From assembly GCF_048403405.1 (NCBI RefSeq), contig NZ_CP183129.1: DNA of 64,000 nt, one strand, 5' to 3'. The position numbers were made by a program, and so were the translations under genes. Under the pieces are notes generated by a model. The model saw only the letters and a program-made list of their open reading frames with translations. It was not told the origin of the DNA and ran no database searches. Source of the DNA: Escherichia coli (GTDB lineage Bacteria; Pseudomonadota; Gammaproteobacteria; Enterobacterales; Enterobacteriaceae). Of this stretch, positions 31,419 through 37,575 are shown piece by piece. The first letter of the stretch is position 1. The number at the start of each line of letters is the position of its first letter.

Positions 31419-32468
31419 GTGCGGGTATTACTTAGACCTGTTCTGGTGCCTGAGCTTGGGCTGGTGGTCCTTAAGCCGGGCCGTGAATCCATACAGATAT
31501 TTCATAATCCTCGAGTGCTGGTGGAACCGGAACCAAAAAGCATGCGTAATCTGCCATCCGGAGTCGTTCCTGCCGTTCGCCAGCCGCTGGCGGAAGACAA
31601 AACATTGCTGCCGTTTTTTAGTAACGAACGGGTGATTCGTGCTGCTGGCGGCGTTGGCGCATTGTCTGACTGGCTATTACGTCATGTTACATCCTGCCAG
31701 TGGCCTAATGGCGATTACCATCACACTGAAACAGTCATTCACCGTTATGGTACCGGCGCAATGGTGTTGTGCTGGCACTGCGACAACCAACTGCGTGACC
31801 AGACATCGGAATCACTGGAGCTGCTTGCTCAACAAAATCTGACAGCATGGGTGATTGACGTCATCCGTCACGCAATAAGCGGTACGCAGGAGCGGGAATT
31901 ATCTTTGGCTGAATTATCCTGGTGGGCGGTCTGCAATCAGGTGGTGGATGCACTACCTGAGGCTGTATCGCGTCGTTCGCTGGGATTACCAGCGGAAAAA
32001 ATCTGCTCGGTGTACCGCGAAAGCGACATCGTACCGGGAGAGCAGACCGCCACCAGCATATTGAAACAACGCACAAAAAATCTTGCACCGTTGCCTTACG
32101 CCCACCAGCAACAAAAACCACCACAGGAAAAGACGGTGGTAAGCATCAACGTTGATCCAGAGTCTCCGGAATCTTTCATGAAGCTGCCTAAACGTCGCCG
32201 CTGGGTTAAGGAGAAATACACTCGTTGGGTTAAGACACAGCCGTGTGCTTGCTGCGGTATGCCAGCCGACGATCCGCATCATCTGATTGGTCACGGGCAG
32301 GGCGGAATGGGAACAAAAGCACATGATCTCTTTGTGTTGCCTTTGTGCAGAAAGCATCACAACGAGCTGCATACGGATACAGTGGCATTTGAAGAGAAGT
32401 ATGGCTCCCAACTGGAGCTGATATTTCGTTTTATCGATCGCGCGCTGGCAACTGGCGTACTGGCGTAA
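31419..32468 (+). CDS. DUF968-family protein with HNH-like motif (YdfU-like)
   Basis: 349 aa from a GTG start with GGAGG RBS; C-terminal CACCGMPADDPHHLIGHG...CRKHHNELH Zn/HNH-like motif; located just upstream of Q. Confidence 0.7.
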   Translation: MRVLLRPVLVPELGLVVLKPGRESIQIFHNPRVLVEPEPKSMRNLPSGVVPAVRQPLAEDKTLLPFFSNERVIRAAGGVGALSDWLLRHVTSCQWPNGDYHHTETVIHRYGTGAMVLCWHCDNQLRDQTSESLELLAQQNLTAWVIDVIRHAISGTQERELSLAELSWWAVCNQVVDALPEAVSRRSLGLPAEKICSVYRESDIVPGEQTATSILKQRTKNLAPLPYAHQQQKPPQEKTVVSINVDPESPESFMKLPKRRRWVKEKYTRWVKTQPCACCGMPADDPHHLIGHGQGGMGTKAHDLFVLPLCRKHHNELHTDTVAFEEKYGSQLELIFRFIDRALATGVLA

Positions 32469-32481
32469 GTGGAGAACGAGC

Positions 32482-33234
32482 ATGAACCTTGAAGCCTTAC
32501 CAAAATATTACTCCCCAAAATCTCTAAAATTGAGCGATGACGCTCCAGCGACAGGCACCGGTTGTTTAACAATTACGGATGTAATGGCAGCGCAGGGGAT
32601 GGTGCAGTCGAAAGCACCACTTGGGTTGGCCTTATTTCTGGCAAAAGTTGGTGTTCAGGACCCTCAGTTTGCGATTGAAGGCCTGCTAAATTACGCGATG
32701 GCACTGGATAACCCGACATTGAACAAATTGAGTGAAGAAAGCCGGTTACAGATTATTCCTTACCTCGTGAATTTTGCCTTTGCTGATTACTCCAGGTCTG
32801 CGGCAAGTAAGGCTCGCTGTGAGCATTGTTCAGGTACGGGATTTTATAATGTATTGCGCGAAGTGGTGAAACACTACAGACGCGGGGAATCTGTAATCAA
32901 GGAAGAATGGGTAAAGGAACTATGTCAGCATTGCCATGGTAAGGGCGAAGTCAGCACAGCGTGCAGAGGGTGTAAGGGTAAAGGGATTGTTCTGGATGAA
33001 AAAAGAACCCGGTTTCATGGCGTACCGGTATATAAGATTTGTGGGCGTTGTAATGGAAACCGGTTTAGTCGTTTACCGACCACGCTGGCACGACGTCATG
33101 TCCAGAAGCTGGTACCAGACCTGACCGATTATCAGTGGTATAAGGGGTATGCGGACGTCATTGATAAACTGGTAACAAAGTGCTGGCAGGAAGAAGCATA
33201 CGCGGAAGCGCAATTGAGGAAGGTGACGAGATAA
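32482..33234 (+). CDS. late-gene antitermination protein Q
   Basis: 250 aa; zinc-binding CxxC clusters ([34 protein letters not shown]) typical of Q antiterminators. Confidence 0.8.
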
Positions 33235-33341
33235 ATGATTTTTGCTGAAGATGGCGACATGATGTTTGCATTTTTCAAAAAACATGGATAAGATTTTCTC
33301 AACGATGGGCTTTGTGTATCCGACGTTTAGAAAAAAGTAGA

Positions 33342-33367
33342 AAACCCGCTTATAAGCGGGTTTTTGT
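33342..33367 (+). terminator. intrinsic terminator (tR'-like) about 110 bp downstream of Q
   Basis: AAACCCGCT-TATA-AGCGGGTTT hairpin plus T tract. Confidence 0.6.
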
Positions 33368-33404
33368 GCTTTAAATGGGGCAATAGAGATATTGAATCTC
33401 ATCC

Positions 33405-33589
33405 CGGGATAAACATTGGCAGTTGAAGGTCCACGCGAACCATTTATCCGGCAAAATTCCACGCGTAATCCTGTGGTAATTTCTTCTGCATCTCGAAGAT
33501 TGAGAGCTGAAACGTGAAGCTGGGCATCGATACGCCATCGGATGGGAATATAAGACCTTTGCTGCTTTTGTAGTCAAAGTTTTTGACAA
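33405..33589 (-). pseudogene. degraded cold-shock protein gene (cspF-like remnant)
   Basis: Minus-strand frame encodes ...[42 protein letters not shown] (Csp C-terminal half) but the N-terminus is in another frame and no stop follows the expected end. Confidence 0.5.
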
Positions 33590-33909
33590 TTCCTGTCATT
33601 TTAGGGGACAGAAAAACTCCTTAATACTGATAACCTGGTGCACCATACACACGTTCCTGGAGAAAACTACTTTTTTGATAGGGTTGAAGGTGGCTGGATG
33701 TCTAAAATAAACATTGCTTCATATGTTCAACTATGAGTTAATGACTGCGTCGGTTTGAAGAACAGACGATATACGAAGTAGTTTACTAAAGCAGTTCTCA
33801 TTTCAGGTGTTATTCACTTATTCCTTCTTTGAGTCTCTCCAATTAAGTACGAAGTCGTTTCTGTTATGCAAACCATTTATGCCGAAAGGCTCAAGTTAAG
33901 GAATGTAGA

Positions 33910-34125
33910 ATGTCAAATAAAATGACTGGTTTAGTAAAATGGTTTAACGCTGATAAAGGTTTCGGCTTTATTTCTCCTGTTGATGGTAGTAAAGATGTGT
34001 TTGTGCATTTTTCTGCGATTCAGAATGATAATTATCGAACCTTATTTGAAGGTCAAAAGGTTACCTTCTCTATAGAGAGTGGTGCTAAAGGTCCTGCAGC
34101 AGCAAATGTCATCATTACTGATTAA
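33910..34125 (+). CDS. cspB: cold-shock protein (CspA family)
   Basis: 71 aa, [38 protein letters not shown]... with RNP1/RNP2 motifs; long 5' leader typical of csp genes. Confidence 0.8.
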
Positions 34126-34406
34126 AATTCATCGCTCGTCTGTATACGATAACGAAGAAGGCTGATGCCTGAGTAGAGATACGGACAGAGTAGTGAATAT
34201 TGGATCTCTTTAATAAAAAGTAAGGAGGTCCAATACATGAAACAATGGCCAGCATATTTGGCAAAATCTTAATCAGGAAAAGTATGCTAACCATTGTGGT
34301 GAAGTGCAGGTTTGCTGCATGAATAGTTTCACAGCAGAAGCTAACTGCTGGCATCGCAAAACAAAGTGCGTAAGTGGATGACTCCCACAAAAAGCACCAC
34401 AATCTC

Positions 34407-34488: not shown

Positions 34489-34659
34489 TCAGGCTACAGC
34501 TTTAAGATTTGTCTGGAATACTTTGTTGCAATGAGGGCAGATCAAAAGGGCACCTTTTTGTACTCTTGAAAAACTGTGTTCTGACTCTTGGGTGCAGTTT
34601 GGGCAGGAACATTTAACGAGATAATTACGGCGTGATTTTGAGTCTTTACGTTCTGACAT
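34489..34659 (-). CDS. small C4 zinc-ribbon protein
   Basis: 56 aa from MSERKDSKSRRNYLVKCSCPNCTQESEHSFSRVQKGALLICPHCNKVFQTNLKAVA; strong RBS (AGGAAAAG) before this Met. Confidence 0.5.
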   Translation of the reverse strand: MSERKDSKSRRNYLVKCSCPNCTQESEHSFSRVQKGALLICPHCNKVFQTNLKAVA

Positions 34660-34878: not shown

Positions 34879-35094
34879 ATGAAATCAATGGATAAGTTAA
34901 CAACAGGTGTTGCCTATGGCACATCGGCGGGTAATGCTGGTTTCTGGGCATTGCAGTTACTCGATAAAGTAACTCCGTCACAGTGGGCTGCAATCGGTGT
35001 GCTGGGTAGCCTGGTTTTTGGCCTGCTGACGTATCTGACAAATCTTTATTTCAAGATTAAAGAAGACAGGCGTAAGGCTGCGAGAGGAGAGTAA
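34879..35094 (+). CDS. essQ: class II pinholin (phage 21 S-like) with dual-start motif
   Basis: [71 protein letters not shown]; two TM helices; Met1/Met4 dual start. Confidence 0.85.
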
Positions 35095-35098
35095 TCCA

Positions 35099-35650
35099 AT
35101 GACTCAAGACTATGAACTGGTTGTGAAAGGAGTCCGTAATTTTGAGAATAAAGTTACGGTAACTGTAGCCTTACGGGACAAAAAACACTTTGACGGTGAA
35201 ATTTTTGACCTGGACATCTCGCTGGACCGTGTTGAAGGTGCCGCGCTGGAGTTTTATGAGGCAGCAGCCAGAAGGAGCATCAGACAGGTCTTCCTGGATG
35301 TTGCTGCCGGGTTATGTGAAGGGGATGAGCAGTCGCCGGAAAAGCGCCCCATAATTTTAGAGGCGCAGAATGTGTGGATAACCTACAAAGGAAAGCTACC
35401 GGGAAGAATTACTGGTTCTCTGAAGACGCCACCGACGGCATTGCGGTCAGAAAAAGATGATATTGAATCGCCCATTGAAAAACTGGAGGGCAGCGTCGCT
35501 GATCTGAATAAAAAATTGTCGGTGCTGATTCCTTCTGAAGATGAAAAAAAACGCCGCGATGAGCAGTTTGCGGCGTTTTACGATTATTGCATTGAAGTTA
35601 CTCGCAGGAATTTTGTGAAGATTTTTGAGGAGGGTAAATCTCTTCAGTAA
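35099..35650 (+). CDS. hypothetical protein inserted between holin and endolysin
   Basis: 183-aa ORF with GAGGAG RBS directly after the holin stop; no recognisable motif. Confidence 0.55.
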   Translation: MTQDYELVVKGVRNFENKVTVTVALRDKKHFDGEIFDLDISLDRVEGAALEFYEAAARRSIRQVFLDVAAGLCEGDEQSPEKRPIILEAQNVWITYKGKLPGRITGSLKTPPTALRSEKDDIESPIEKLEGSVADLNKKLSVLIPSEDEKKRRDEQFAAFYDYCIEVTRRNFVKIFEEGKSLQ

Positions 35651-35858
35651 GCTTATTGGCGGACGCTGCAATTAATTCAGGAAGGTCCGCAAGGTCATCT
35701 GTCAGTGGATATGATGAAAAATCGGCGGCAGTTCTGTTAAGAAGCGCTTTAACTAATTCCTTTTCCTTCTCCGGCAACAAGTTGATTAGAGCTACGACTG
35801 CTTGCCTGAGTGCGATTAAATCAGCAAAAGTTTGTTTAGGTAGATTTGTGTAATCCAT
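35598..35858 (-). CDS. hypothetical protein, convergent to the lysis operon
   Basis: 86-aa ORF with GAGG RBS 8 nt upstream of its ATG; helical, acidic; overlaps the previous gene's 3' end by 53 nt. Confidence 0.45.
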   Translation of the reverse strand: MDYTNLPKQTFADLIALRQAVVALINLLPEKEKELVKALLNRTAADFSSYPLTDDLADLPELIAASANKLTEEIYPPQKSSQNSCE

Positions 35859-37362: not shown

Positions 37363-37575
37363 ATGTCTAACAAAATGACTGGTTTAGTGAAATGGTTTAA
37401 CCCTGAAAAAGGTTTTGGTTTCATCACGCCGAAAGATGGTAGCAAAGATGTGTTTGTCCATTTCTCAGCTATTCAGAGCAACGATTTCAAAACGTTAACT
37501 GAGAATCAGGAAGTCGAATTTGGTATTGAGAACGGACCTAAAGGCCCCGCGGCTGTTCATGTTGTGGCACTTTGA
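37363..37575 (+). CDS. cold-shock protein (CspA family; cspI-like position after the lysis cassette)
   Basis: [45 protein letters not shown]... Confidence 0.8.

What the first reader, a model, noticed from the sequence alone, without database searches (positions are those of the whole stretch)
33405..34125. Degraded cold-shock gene remnant opposite an intact csp paralog
The minus strand at 33405-33589 encodes a recognisable Csp C-terminal half (...[37 protein letters not shown]) but with a frame break near the N-terminus and no stop after the expected end. An intact cspB-like gene and a second csp lie nearby, indicating csp family turnover within the prophage.
Basis: partly seen in the sequence, partly recalled or inferred. 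Interest (0 to 1): 0.3.

Follow-up and report, generated by a model that had tools for sequence, protein, structure and literature searches.

The report
Dead cspF gene in prophage
This is an ordinary broken copy (pseudogene) of the cold-shock-like gene cspF, sitting next to an intact cspB in a Qin-type lambdoid prophage of E. coli; the same broken copy occurs in about 4% of complete E. coli genomes and RefSeq already annotates it as a pseudogene.

Summary
Window 33410-33611 (minus strand) is the ortholog of E. coli K-12 cspF (b1558). It lies where cspF lies in K-12, between the antiterminator Q gene ydfT and a divergently transcribed cspB that is 100% identical to K-12.

Two lesions disable it:
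- A 1-bp deletion at 33534|33535, in codon 26 of 70.
- A 258-bp deletion with its junction at 33409|33410. It removes codons 69-70, the stop codon and the downstream small gene ynfS.

These are not sequencing errors. The junction is in 211 and the frameshift in 213 of 5,426 complete E. coli genomes, at the same spacing wherever checked. ATCC 25922 carries both, and so does the plaque-forming LF82 phage Tritos. NCBI's PGAP pipeline already labels the locus "cspF, frameshifted; incomplete; missing C-terminus".

The remnant lies in a ~460-bp block that is about 9.5% diverged from K-12, between flanks that match K-12 exactly. For the repaired reading frame dN/dS is 0.37. So this was a functional, diverged cspF allele brought in by phage mosaic recombination, and it decayed later. 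No credible intact copy of this haplotype was found.

Intact cspB (33910-34125, with a cspA-type 5'UTR) and cspI (37363-37575) remain.

Verdict: real, ordinary and already known.

The parts
33410..33611 (-). cspF pseudogene: 202 bp homologous to codons 1-68 of K-12 cspF. The start position is CTG here and TTG in K-12.
   Evidence: Alignment with K-12 MG1655. PGAP annotates the identical sequence in NZ_CP031105 and NZ_CP120567 as 'cspF, frameshifted; incomplete; missing C-terminus', equivalent to window 33409-33611.
33534..33535 (-). Site of the 1-bp deletion (K-12 GATGGTCGTAT becomes GATGGCGTAT), a frameshift in codon 26.
   Evidence: The 48-mer spanning the site is found in 213 of 5,426 genomes.
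33409..33410 (-). Junction of the 258-bp deletion (K-12 segment L002:6059-6316), which removed cspF codons 69-70, the stop codon, ynfS and its 3' flank.
   Evidence: The 48-mer spanning the junction is in 211 genomes. The deleted segment is present in about 1,405 other genomes.
33444..33599 (-). Residual 51-codon ORF (55 codons if counted from CTG at 33611): 22 Csp-like residues followed by 29 out-of-frame residues.
   Evidence: No Pfam hit.
33341..33364 (.). GC-rich hairpin with an A-run on one side and a T-run on the other. It looks like a bidirectional terminator: the end of the cspF(-ynfS) unit on the minus strand, and a tR'-like terminator downstream of Q on the plus strand. It now lies 45 bp from the deletion junction.
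   Evidence: minus-strand terminator call. The plus-strand T-run was read from the sequence. The hairpin is conserved in K-12.
33283..33745 (.). Diverged block: 44 substitutions, about 9.5% divergence from K-12. It covers the cspF promoter region, the cspF remnant and the terminator. The flanks match K-12 exactly in this alignment (215 columns on the cspB side, about 100 on the ydfT side).
   Evidence: mismatches per bin; cspB 100%, ydfT 99.2% nucleotide identity.
33749..33909 (+). cspB 5' untranslated leader of the cspA thermoregulator type.
   Evidence: Rfam RF01766 matches 33749-34141 at 158.8 bits (gathering score 78), E = 1.6e-42.
33910..34125 (+). Intact cspB (71 aa).
   Evidence: 100% nucleotide identity to K-12 cspB. 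Pfam CSD 109 bits.
37363..37575 (+). Intact cspI (70 aa), the second csp gene nearby.
   Evidence: 100% amino-acid and 95.8% nucleotide identity to K-12 cspI.
32482..33234 (+). ydfT/quuQ antiterminator Q gene, convergent with the cspF remnant.
   Evidence: Pfam Antiterm PF03589, 182.9 bits. 99.2% nucleotide identity to K-12 ydfT.

Best explanation
Window 33410-33611 (minus strand) is a non-functional remnant of cspF, a cold-shock-domain 'moron' gene of Qin-type lambdoid prophages. It lies between the Q antiterminator gene and cspB.

Shown:
- A 1-bp deletion in codon 26 shifts the frame, so translation from the original start ends after 51-55 codons.
- An independent 258-bp deletion removed the last two codons, the stop codon and the downstream small-protein gene ynfS. 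What is left now abuts the hairpin terminator behind Q.
- The two lesions travel together in about 211 complete E. coli genomes and in the viable temperate phage Tritos.
- The allele sits in a ~460-bp block that is about 9.5% diverged from K-12, between flanks identical to K-12.

Inferred:
- The block was imported by phage mosaic recombination as a functional, diverged cspF allele. The support is dN/dS of 0.37 with dS of 0.20.
- It was inactivated afterwards and has spread horizontally with the phage, because cspF is dispensable to both phage and host.
- The remnant has no function of its own.
For: - Synteny and nucleotide alignment with K-12 cspF define both lesions.
- PGAP annotates the identical sequence as a frameshifted, incomplete cspF pseudogene.
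- The junction 48-mer is in 211 genomes and the frameshift 48-mer in 213, 125 bp apart as in the window, for example in NZ_CP075665.
- The cspF locus is in 1,622 genomes, of which about 1,405 keep the 258-bp segment.
- The CSD domain is split across two frames: repaired 62.5 bits, C-terminal frame 31.4 bits, N-terminal ORF no hit.
- dN/dS is 0.37, and divergence is confined to 33283-33745. Neighbouring genes are 99-100% identical to K-12.
- No RefSeq complete genome has this haplotype with an intact frame or an undeleted 3' end.
- Phage Tritos carries both lesions. It forms virions and plaques, and cspB and cspI, but not cspF, are listed among its expressed morons (PMC9928086).
- Phage 2H10 carries an intact cspF.
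Against: - The Shine-Dalgarno sequence (AAGGAG) and the upstream region are retained, and the same upstream haplotype drives intact cspF genes in MEI005-type strains. The remnant may therefore still be transcribed and yield a 51-55-aa peptide; expression was not tested.
- One database protein (P0001, from CP123276.1) is an 'intact' version of this haplotype. However, that record is collinear with K-12 over 8.2 kb with 403 SNPs and only 8 gap positions, and its 258-bp segment is identical to K-12. It looks like a reference-guided consensus.
- The function of cspF itself is unknown (PMC6719143), so 'dispensable' is inferred from distribution only.
Confidence: 0.93

Rival explanations
1. The frame break and missing stop are sequencing or assembly errors, and the strain really has an intact 70-aa cspF.
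For: Single-base indels are a common error class. One carrier genome (MSI001) has an extra 1-bp insertion nearby (GGTCTT to GGTCCTT) that may itself be an error.
Against: The same 1-bp deletion is in 213 complete genomes and the same 258-bp deletion junction is in 211. These include several independent ATCC 25922 assemblies and phage Tritos. The frameshift site is not a homopolymer (GATGG|CGTAT). A 258-bp deletion is not a base-calling artefact.
Confidence: 0.01
2. The remnant has been put to a new use. One version: the conserved 51-55-codon ORF (a Csp N-terminal beta-hairpin plus a new tail) is an expressed small protein. The other: the cspF promoter now makes a short RNA that ends at the bidirectional terminator and converges on the late-operon leader downstream of Q, which lies just beyond that terminator.
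For: The Shine-Dalgarno sequence and upstream region are retained. The allele is at least 99% conserved in 212 genomes and rides on an active phage. The deletion places the remnant 45 bp from the terminator hairpin.
Against: The conservation is explained by recent common descent and horizontal spread. The 51-aa product has no family match. The start is CTG, and the next in-frame ATG lies 17 nt from the Shine-Dalgarno sequence, so both are poor start signals. Nothing at this position is listed among the expressed Tritos morons. No selection signal can be measured, because the carrier alleles are nearly identical.
Confidence: 0.04
3. The gene is still functional through programmed frameshifting or as a two-piece (split) cold-shock protein.
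For: Both halves of the CSD are still recognisable.
Against: There is no slippery heptamer or homopolymer at the shift site. The second frame has no start or ribosome-binding site. It lacks its native C-terminus and stop, and would run about 110 extra codons antisense into ydfT. Intact single-ORF cspF is the rule in about 1,400 genomes.
Confidence: 0.01

Closest known systems
E. coli K-12 cspF (b1558), Qin cryptic prophage
   Same: Same position and orientation (ydfU, ydfT, then cspF on the opposite strand, then cspB, ynfU and the holin). 89.9% nucleotide identity over the remnant. 60 of 68 aligned codons give the same amino acid. Same Shine-Dalgarno sequence.
   Different: The window copy has CTG instead of TTG at the start, a 1-bp frameshift in codon 26, and lacks codons 69-70, the stop and the downstream ynfS. 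It belongs to a haplotype about 10% diverged from K-12.
RefSeq/PGAP pseudogene records, e.g. DUT84_RS24560 (NZ_CP031105.1) and P5707_RS13160 (NZ_CP120567.1)
   Same: 100% identical sequence (NZ_CP031105) or the same allele, annotated 'cold shock-like protein CspF; frameshifted; incomplete; missing C-terminus'.
   Different: Nothing material. This is the same feature, already annotated.
Escherichia phage Tritos (OV696610.1; prophage 3 of AIEC strain LF82)
   Same: 99.6% identity over 33236-34250 in one piece. It carries both lesions next to cspB. It is an active temperate phage with cspB and cspI as expressed morons (PMC9928086).
   Different: One SNP near the junction. The remnant is not annotated in the phage record. 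The window prophage is a mosaic relative, not the same phage.
cspH (b0989), the chromosomal paralog of cspF
   Same: Same CspF/CspH clade of aromatic-poor, Enterobacteriaceae-restricted Csp proteins of unknown function (PMC6719143).

Membership tests
cspF ortholog (Qin-type prophage locus) | Lies between the antiterminator Q gene (ydfT) and a divergent cspB, upstream of the lysis cassette. | tested here: met
   gene order is identical to K-12 Qin.
cspF ortholog (Qin-type prophage locus) | Sequence closer to CspF than to any other Csp paralog. | tested here: met
   the top hits are all CspF (86-90% identity), while CspH is 67%; 89.9% nucleotide identity to K-12 cspF.
Functional cold-shock domain protein (Pfam PF00313, about 70 aa, single ORF) | The complete CSD is encoded in one uninterrupted ORF with a start and a stop. 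| tested here: not met
   The domain is split between two frames at 33534|33535. The native stop is deleted. The 51-aa ORF has no CSD hit, and the C-terminal frame matches only profile positions 25-64.
Pseudogene (real, heritable inactivation) | Disabling lesions relative to intact orthologs, reproducible in independent assemblies. | tested here: met
   the frameshift is in 213 genomes and the deletion in 211, and both are in phage Tritos.
Pseudogene (real, heritable inactivation) | No transcript or protein with a function. | not testable with these tools
   No expression data for this locus could be analysed. The Tritos moron table lists cspB and cspI only, which is indirect evidence.
cspA-type cold-shock gene with thermoregulatory 5'UTR (applies to the neighbouring cspB) | A long structured 5'UTR that matches Rfam RF01766, followed by an intact CSD ORF. 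| tested here: met
   158.8 bits against a gathering score of 78; CSD 109 bits; 100% identical to K-12 cspB.

The most novel reading that the evidence does not exclude
The decayed cspF locus is not inert. Its retained promoter and Shine-Dalgarno sequence could express a lineage-specific 51-55-aa peptide (a Csp beta-hairpin fused to a new tail). Alternatively they could make a short RNA that ends at the bidirectional terminator behind Q and influences late-operon read-through in Tritos-like phages.
Probability: 0.03. Interest if true: 0.35.

Novelty: already known. Interest (0 to 1): 0.08.

Why it matters
It matters little in itself. It is a routine case of decay of an accessory ('moron') gene in a lambdoid prophage, and it is already flagged as a pseudogene in RefSeq.

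Three modest points follow from it:
- cspF and ynfS, both of unknown function, are dispensable for a plaque-forming phage (Tritos) and for about 211 host strains.
- The two lesions are a convenient marker of one phage-module lineage that has spread across distant E. coli backgrounds. Carriers include ATCC 25922, avian pathogenic (APEC) strains, Shiga-toxin-producing (STEC) strains and ECOR29.
- The only 'intact' database protein of this haplotype seems to come from a reference-guided assembly. That is a warning against using such entries as evidence of functional alleles.

Tried and rejected
1. Sequencing error. Rejected: both lesions are in about 211-213 complete genomes and in phage Tritos.

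2. An evolutionary intermediate carrying only one lesion. MSI001 looked like one, because PGAP calls it 'incomplete' but not 'frameshifted'. The alignment shows it has both lesions plus an extra +1 insertion 21 bp upstream that restores the frame. Because the counts are so close (211 and 213), the order of the two lesions cannot be resolved.

3. An intact copy of the window haplotype.
   - The protein search found P0001 at 99% identity.
   - Its source, CP123276.1 (4,641,690 bp), has the window's SNPs but K-12's indel states and a 258-bp segment identical to K-12. It is collinear with K-12 over 8.2 kb, with 403 SNPs and 8 gap positions. I judged it a reference-guided consensus.
   - Searches specific to this haplotype in RefSeq complete genomes found nothing: no intact frame and no undeleted 3' end at 99% identity or better.

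4. A deletion mediated by repeats or a mobile element. No direct or inverted repeats flank the 258-bp segment. The nearby CATGAG repeats do not sit at the breakpoints.

5. Divergence caused by post-inactivation drift. Rejected: the non-coding flanks inside the block are equally diverged, sequences outside it are identical to K-12, and dN/dS is 0.37. Mosaic recombination fits better. MEI005-type recombinants with a breakpoint inside cspF confirm that the two haplotypes exchange sequence.

6. The CTG start as a third lesion. Not accepted as such: MEI005-type genes with the same CTG and 5' haplotype are annotated as intact.

7. The weak Rfam hits (rnk leader, RsmY, Trp leader; E = 0.1-0.5, far below gathering scores) are terminator-hairpin look-alikes and were dismissed.

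Full report
**What is at the coordinates**

The minus strand of 33405-33620 holds two pieces of a cold-shock domain in two different frames.
- [22 protein letters not shown]... lies in an ORF at 33444-33599.
- ...[41 protein letters not shown] lies in another frame. That frame continues without a stop to about 33075, antisense into the upstream gene.

The plus-strand gene at 33910-34125 encodes a 71-aa Csp.

**Identity and context**

The surrounding genes are:
- ydfU (DUF968) at 31419-32468
- ydfT/quuQ, the antiterminator Q gene, at 32482-33234
- the remnant on the minus strand
- cspB at 33910-34125
- ynfU on the minus strand at 34489-34659
- a P21-type holin at 34879-35094
- a DUF1327 gene, a lysozyme gene and rzpQ
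- cspI at 37363-37575

The order is that of the Qin prophage of E. coli K-12. Here, however, it is part of a complete lambdoid prophage with integrase, immunity, terminase, portal and capsid genes. The best match in complete genomes covers 94% of a 25-kb query at 97% identity, so the window prophage is a mosaic relative of known ones.

Compared with K-12:

| Gene | Nucleotide identity to K-12 |
|---|---|
| cspB | 100% |
| holin | 100% |
| ydfT | 99.2% |
| ydfU | 99.3% |
| cspI | 95.8% (100% in amino acids) |

The cspB leader and ORF match the Rfam cspA thermoregulator family at 158.8 bits, against a gathering score of 78.

**The lesions**

Aligning the reverse complement of the window with K-12 MG1655 shows that 33410-33611 corresponds to cspF codons 1-68. 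There are three differences of note.

1. The start position is CTG, where K-12 has TTG. The AAGGAG Shine-Dalgarno sequence lies 5 nt upstream.
2. One base is missing: K-12 GATGGTCGTAT reads GATGGCGTAT here, between 33534 and 33535. This shifts the frame in codon 26. Translation from the original start gives 55 codons (51 from the internal ATG), of which only the first 22-26 are Csp sequence.
3. A 258-bp deletion has its junction at 33409|33410 and corresponds to K-12 L002:6059-6316. It removes codons 69-70 (Leu-Ser), the TGA stop, the 29-codon small gene ynfS and about 100 bp beyond it. ynfS is an experimentally detected small protein located between cspF and ydfT (PMC6001520).

The remnant now ends 45 bp from a GC-rich hairpin at 33341-33364. 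The hairpin has an A-run on one side and a T-run on the other. The scan calls it a terminator on the minus strand, and it also has a plus-strand T-tail. It lies just downstream of Q, where lambdoid phages have tR'. That last point rests on general knowledge of lambdoid late regulation and was not tested here.

No repeats flank the deletion, so its mechanism is unknown; it looks like illegitimate recombination.

On Pfam CSD (PF00313, cut-off 27 bits):

| Sequence | Score |
|---|---|
| Repaired remnant | 62.5 bits |
| K-12 CspF | 77.8 bits |
| C-terminal frame alone | 31.4 bits (profile positions 25-64) |
| 51-aa ORF | no hit |

**Not an error, and already annotated**

In 5,426 complete RefSeq E. 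coli genomes:
- The cspF locus is present in 1,622.
- The K-12-type 258-bp segment is present in about 1,405.
- A 48-mer that can only match across the deletion junction is in 211 genomes.
- A 48-mer that can only match across the frameshift is in 213 genomes.

In genomes listed in both searches the two sites are 125 bp apart, as in the window (for example NZ_CP075665). Carriers include ATCC 25922 (Seattle 1946), many avian pathogenic (APEC) and poultry isolates, Shiga-toxin-producing (STEC) strains and ECOR29. The allele is thus spread over distant backgrounds.

PGAP annotates the identical sequence as 'cspF ... frameshifted; incomplete; partial in the middle of a contig; missing C-terminus'.

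One apparent intermediate, MSI001, has both lesions plus a +1 insertion 21 bp upstream that restores the frame. It is either a compensating mutation or an assembly error.

**Origin of the allele**

Differences from K-12 are confined to window 33283-33745: 44 substitutions, about 9.5%. In this alignment there are no differences in the 215 columns on the cspB side or in about 100 columns on the ydfT side.

Within the repaired ORF there are 8.5 synonymous and 10.5 non-synonymous differences. This gives dS of 0.20, dN of 0.07 and dN/dS of 0.37. The divergence therefore built up mostly under purifying selection, in a functional allele of a different phage lineage. Mosaic recombination then placed it into a K-12-like backbone, and inactivation came later.

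Recombination between the two haplotypes can be seen directly. MEI005-type strains (77 genomes in the 90-95% identity band) have the window's upstream haplotype through codon 11, including the CTG start, joined to the K-12 haplotype downstream. These genes are annotated as intact cspF.

Its source, CP123276.1, is 4,641,690 bp. It has the window's SNPs but every K-12 indel state, and its 258-bp segment is identical to K-12. It is collinear with K-12 over 8.2 kb, with 403 SNPs and only 8 gap positions. I interpret it as a reference-guided consensus and not as a real intact allele.

Searches specific to the window haplotype found no RefSeq complete genome with the frame intact or with the 3' end undeleted. 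All other intact CspF proteins are 90% identical or less.

**Carriage by active phages**

Among sequenced phages, Escherichia phage Tritos (OV696610.1) matches 33236-34250 at 99.6% in a single piece and carries both lesions. The remnant is not annotated in that record.

Tritos is prophage 3 of the adherent-invasive strain LF82. It is spontaneously induced, forms siphovirus particles and plaques on MG1655 hsdR-. Its cspB and cspI are expressed 59-fold and 93-fold above the prophage background, and no cspF is listed (PMC9928086).

Phage 2H10 carries an intact K-12-type cspF. Viable phages thus exist with either state, so cspF (and ynfS) is dispensable for the phage.

The function of CspF and CspH is unknown. 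They form an aromatic-poor clade restricted to Enterobacteriaceae (PMC6719143). The presence of cspB and cspF varies among E. coli lineages (PMC2806823).

**Mechanistic conclusion**

Shown: the sequence is a cspF ortholog with a frameshift and a 3' truncation. Both lesions are heritable and widespread, and the neighbouring cspB and cspI are intact.

Inferred: the remnant has no function, it arose from a diverged functional allele, and it persists because it hitch-hikes on a mobile and otherwise functional phage.

Not excluded (about 3-4%): residual transcription from the retained upstream region yields a small peptide or a short RNA with some effect. Programmed frameshifting is very unlikely. 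There is no slippery site, and the second frame lacks its native end.

**Verdict**

The feature is ordinary and already annotated in public genomes. Interest is low.

Noticed in passing
window 34239-34274 (+): An 11-codon ORF (MKQWPAYLAKS) 114 bp downstream of cspB, preceded by a near-perfect Shine-Dalgarno sequence (TAAGGAGGT). It is exactly conserved in four related loci (L001, L003, L006, L007) but not exactly in K-12, and is not annotated in any record examined.
   Followed up: partly
window 35099-35650 (+) and 35598-35858 (-): The DUF1327 (ydfR-like) gene after the holin is 183 aa here, against 103 aa in K-12 and A0 34/86. Pfam covers only residues 1-112. Phage 2H10 has an ORF of the same 552-bp length at this position. 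An overlapping 86-aa minus-strand ORF has no Pfam hit. This accounts for the roughly 565 extra bp between cspB and rzpQ relative to A0 34/86.
   Followed up: partly
L005 (CP123276.1, 1637755-1645967): A GenBank 'complete genome' of nearly K-12 length. Over 8.2 kb it is collinear with K-12 with 403 SNPs but only 8 gap positions. It combines the window's SNPs with K-12's indel states, which is the signature of a reference-guided consensus. It puts a probably fictitious intact CspF variant (P0001) into protein databases.
   Followed up: partly
L007 (NZ_CP071259.1, strain MEI005), cspF 915-1127: An intragenic recombinant cspF: the window-type upstream region and first 11 codons (CTG start, MSPK...KNF) joined to a K-12-type remainder, annotated as intact. 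About 77 complete genomes fall in this 90-95% identity class. PGAP therefore accepts a CTG start for cspF.
   Followed up: partly
L003 (NZ_CP076645.1, strain MSI001), about 1640-1660: This carrier of both cspF lesions has an extra C (GGTCTT to GGTCCTT) 21 bp upstream of the frameshift. It restores the frame, so PGAP labels the gene only 'incomplete'. It is either a compensating mutation or an assembly error.
   Followed up: partly
K-12 L002:6123-6212 (ynfS); absent from the window: The deleted segment carried ynfS, a 29-aa, very hydrophobic small protein ([29 protein letters not shown]) whose synthesis has been verified by tagging (PMC6001520). Its function is unknown. About 211 genomes and phage Tritos lack it.
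   Followed up: no
window 37363-37575 (+): cspI is 100% identical to K-12 in protein but only 95.8% in nucleotides (all differences synonymous), whereas cspB is 100% identical in nucleotides. This is another sign of module-by-module mosaicism.
   Followed up: no
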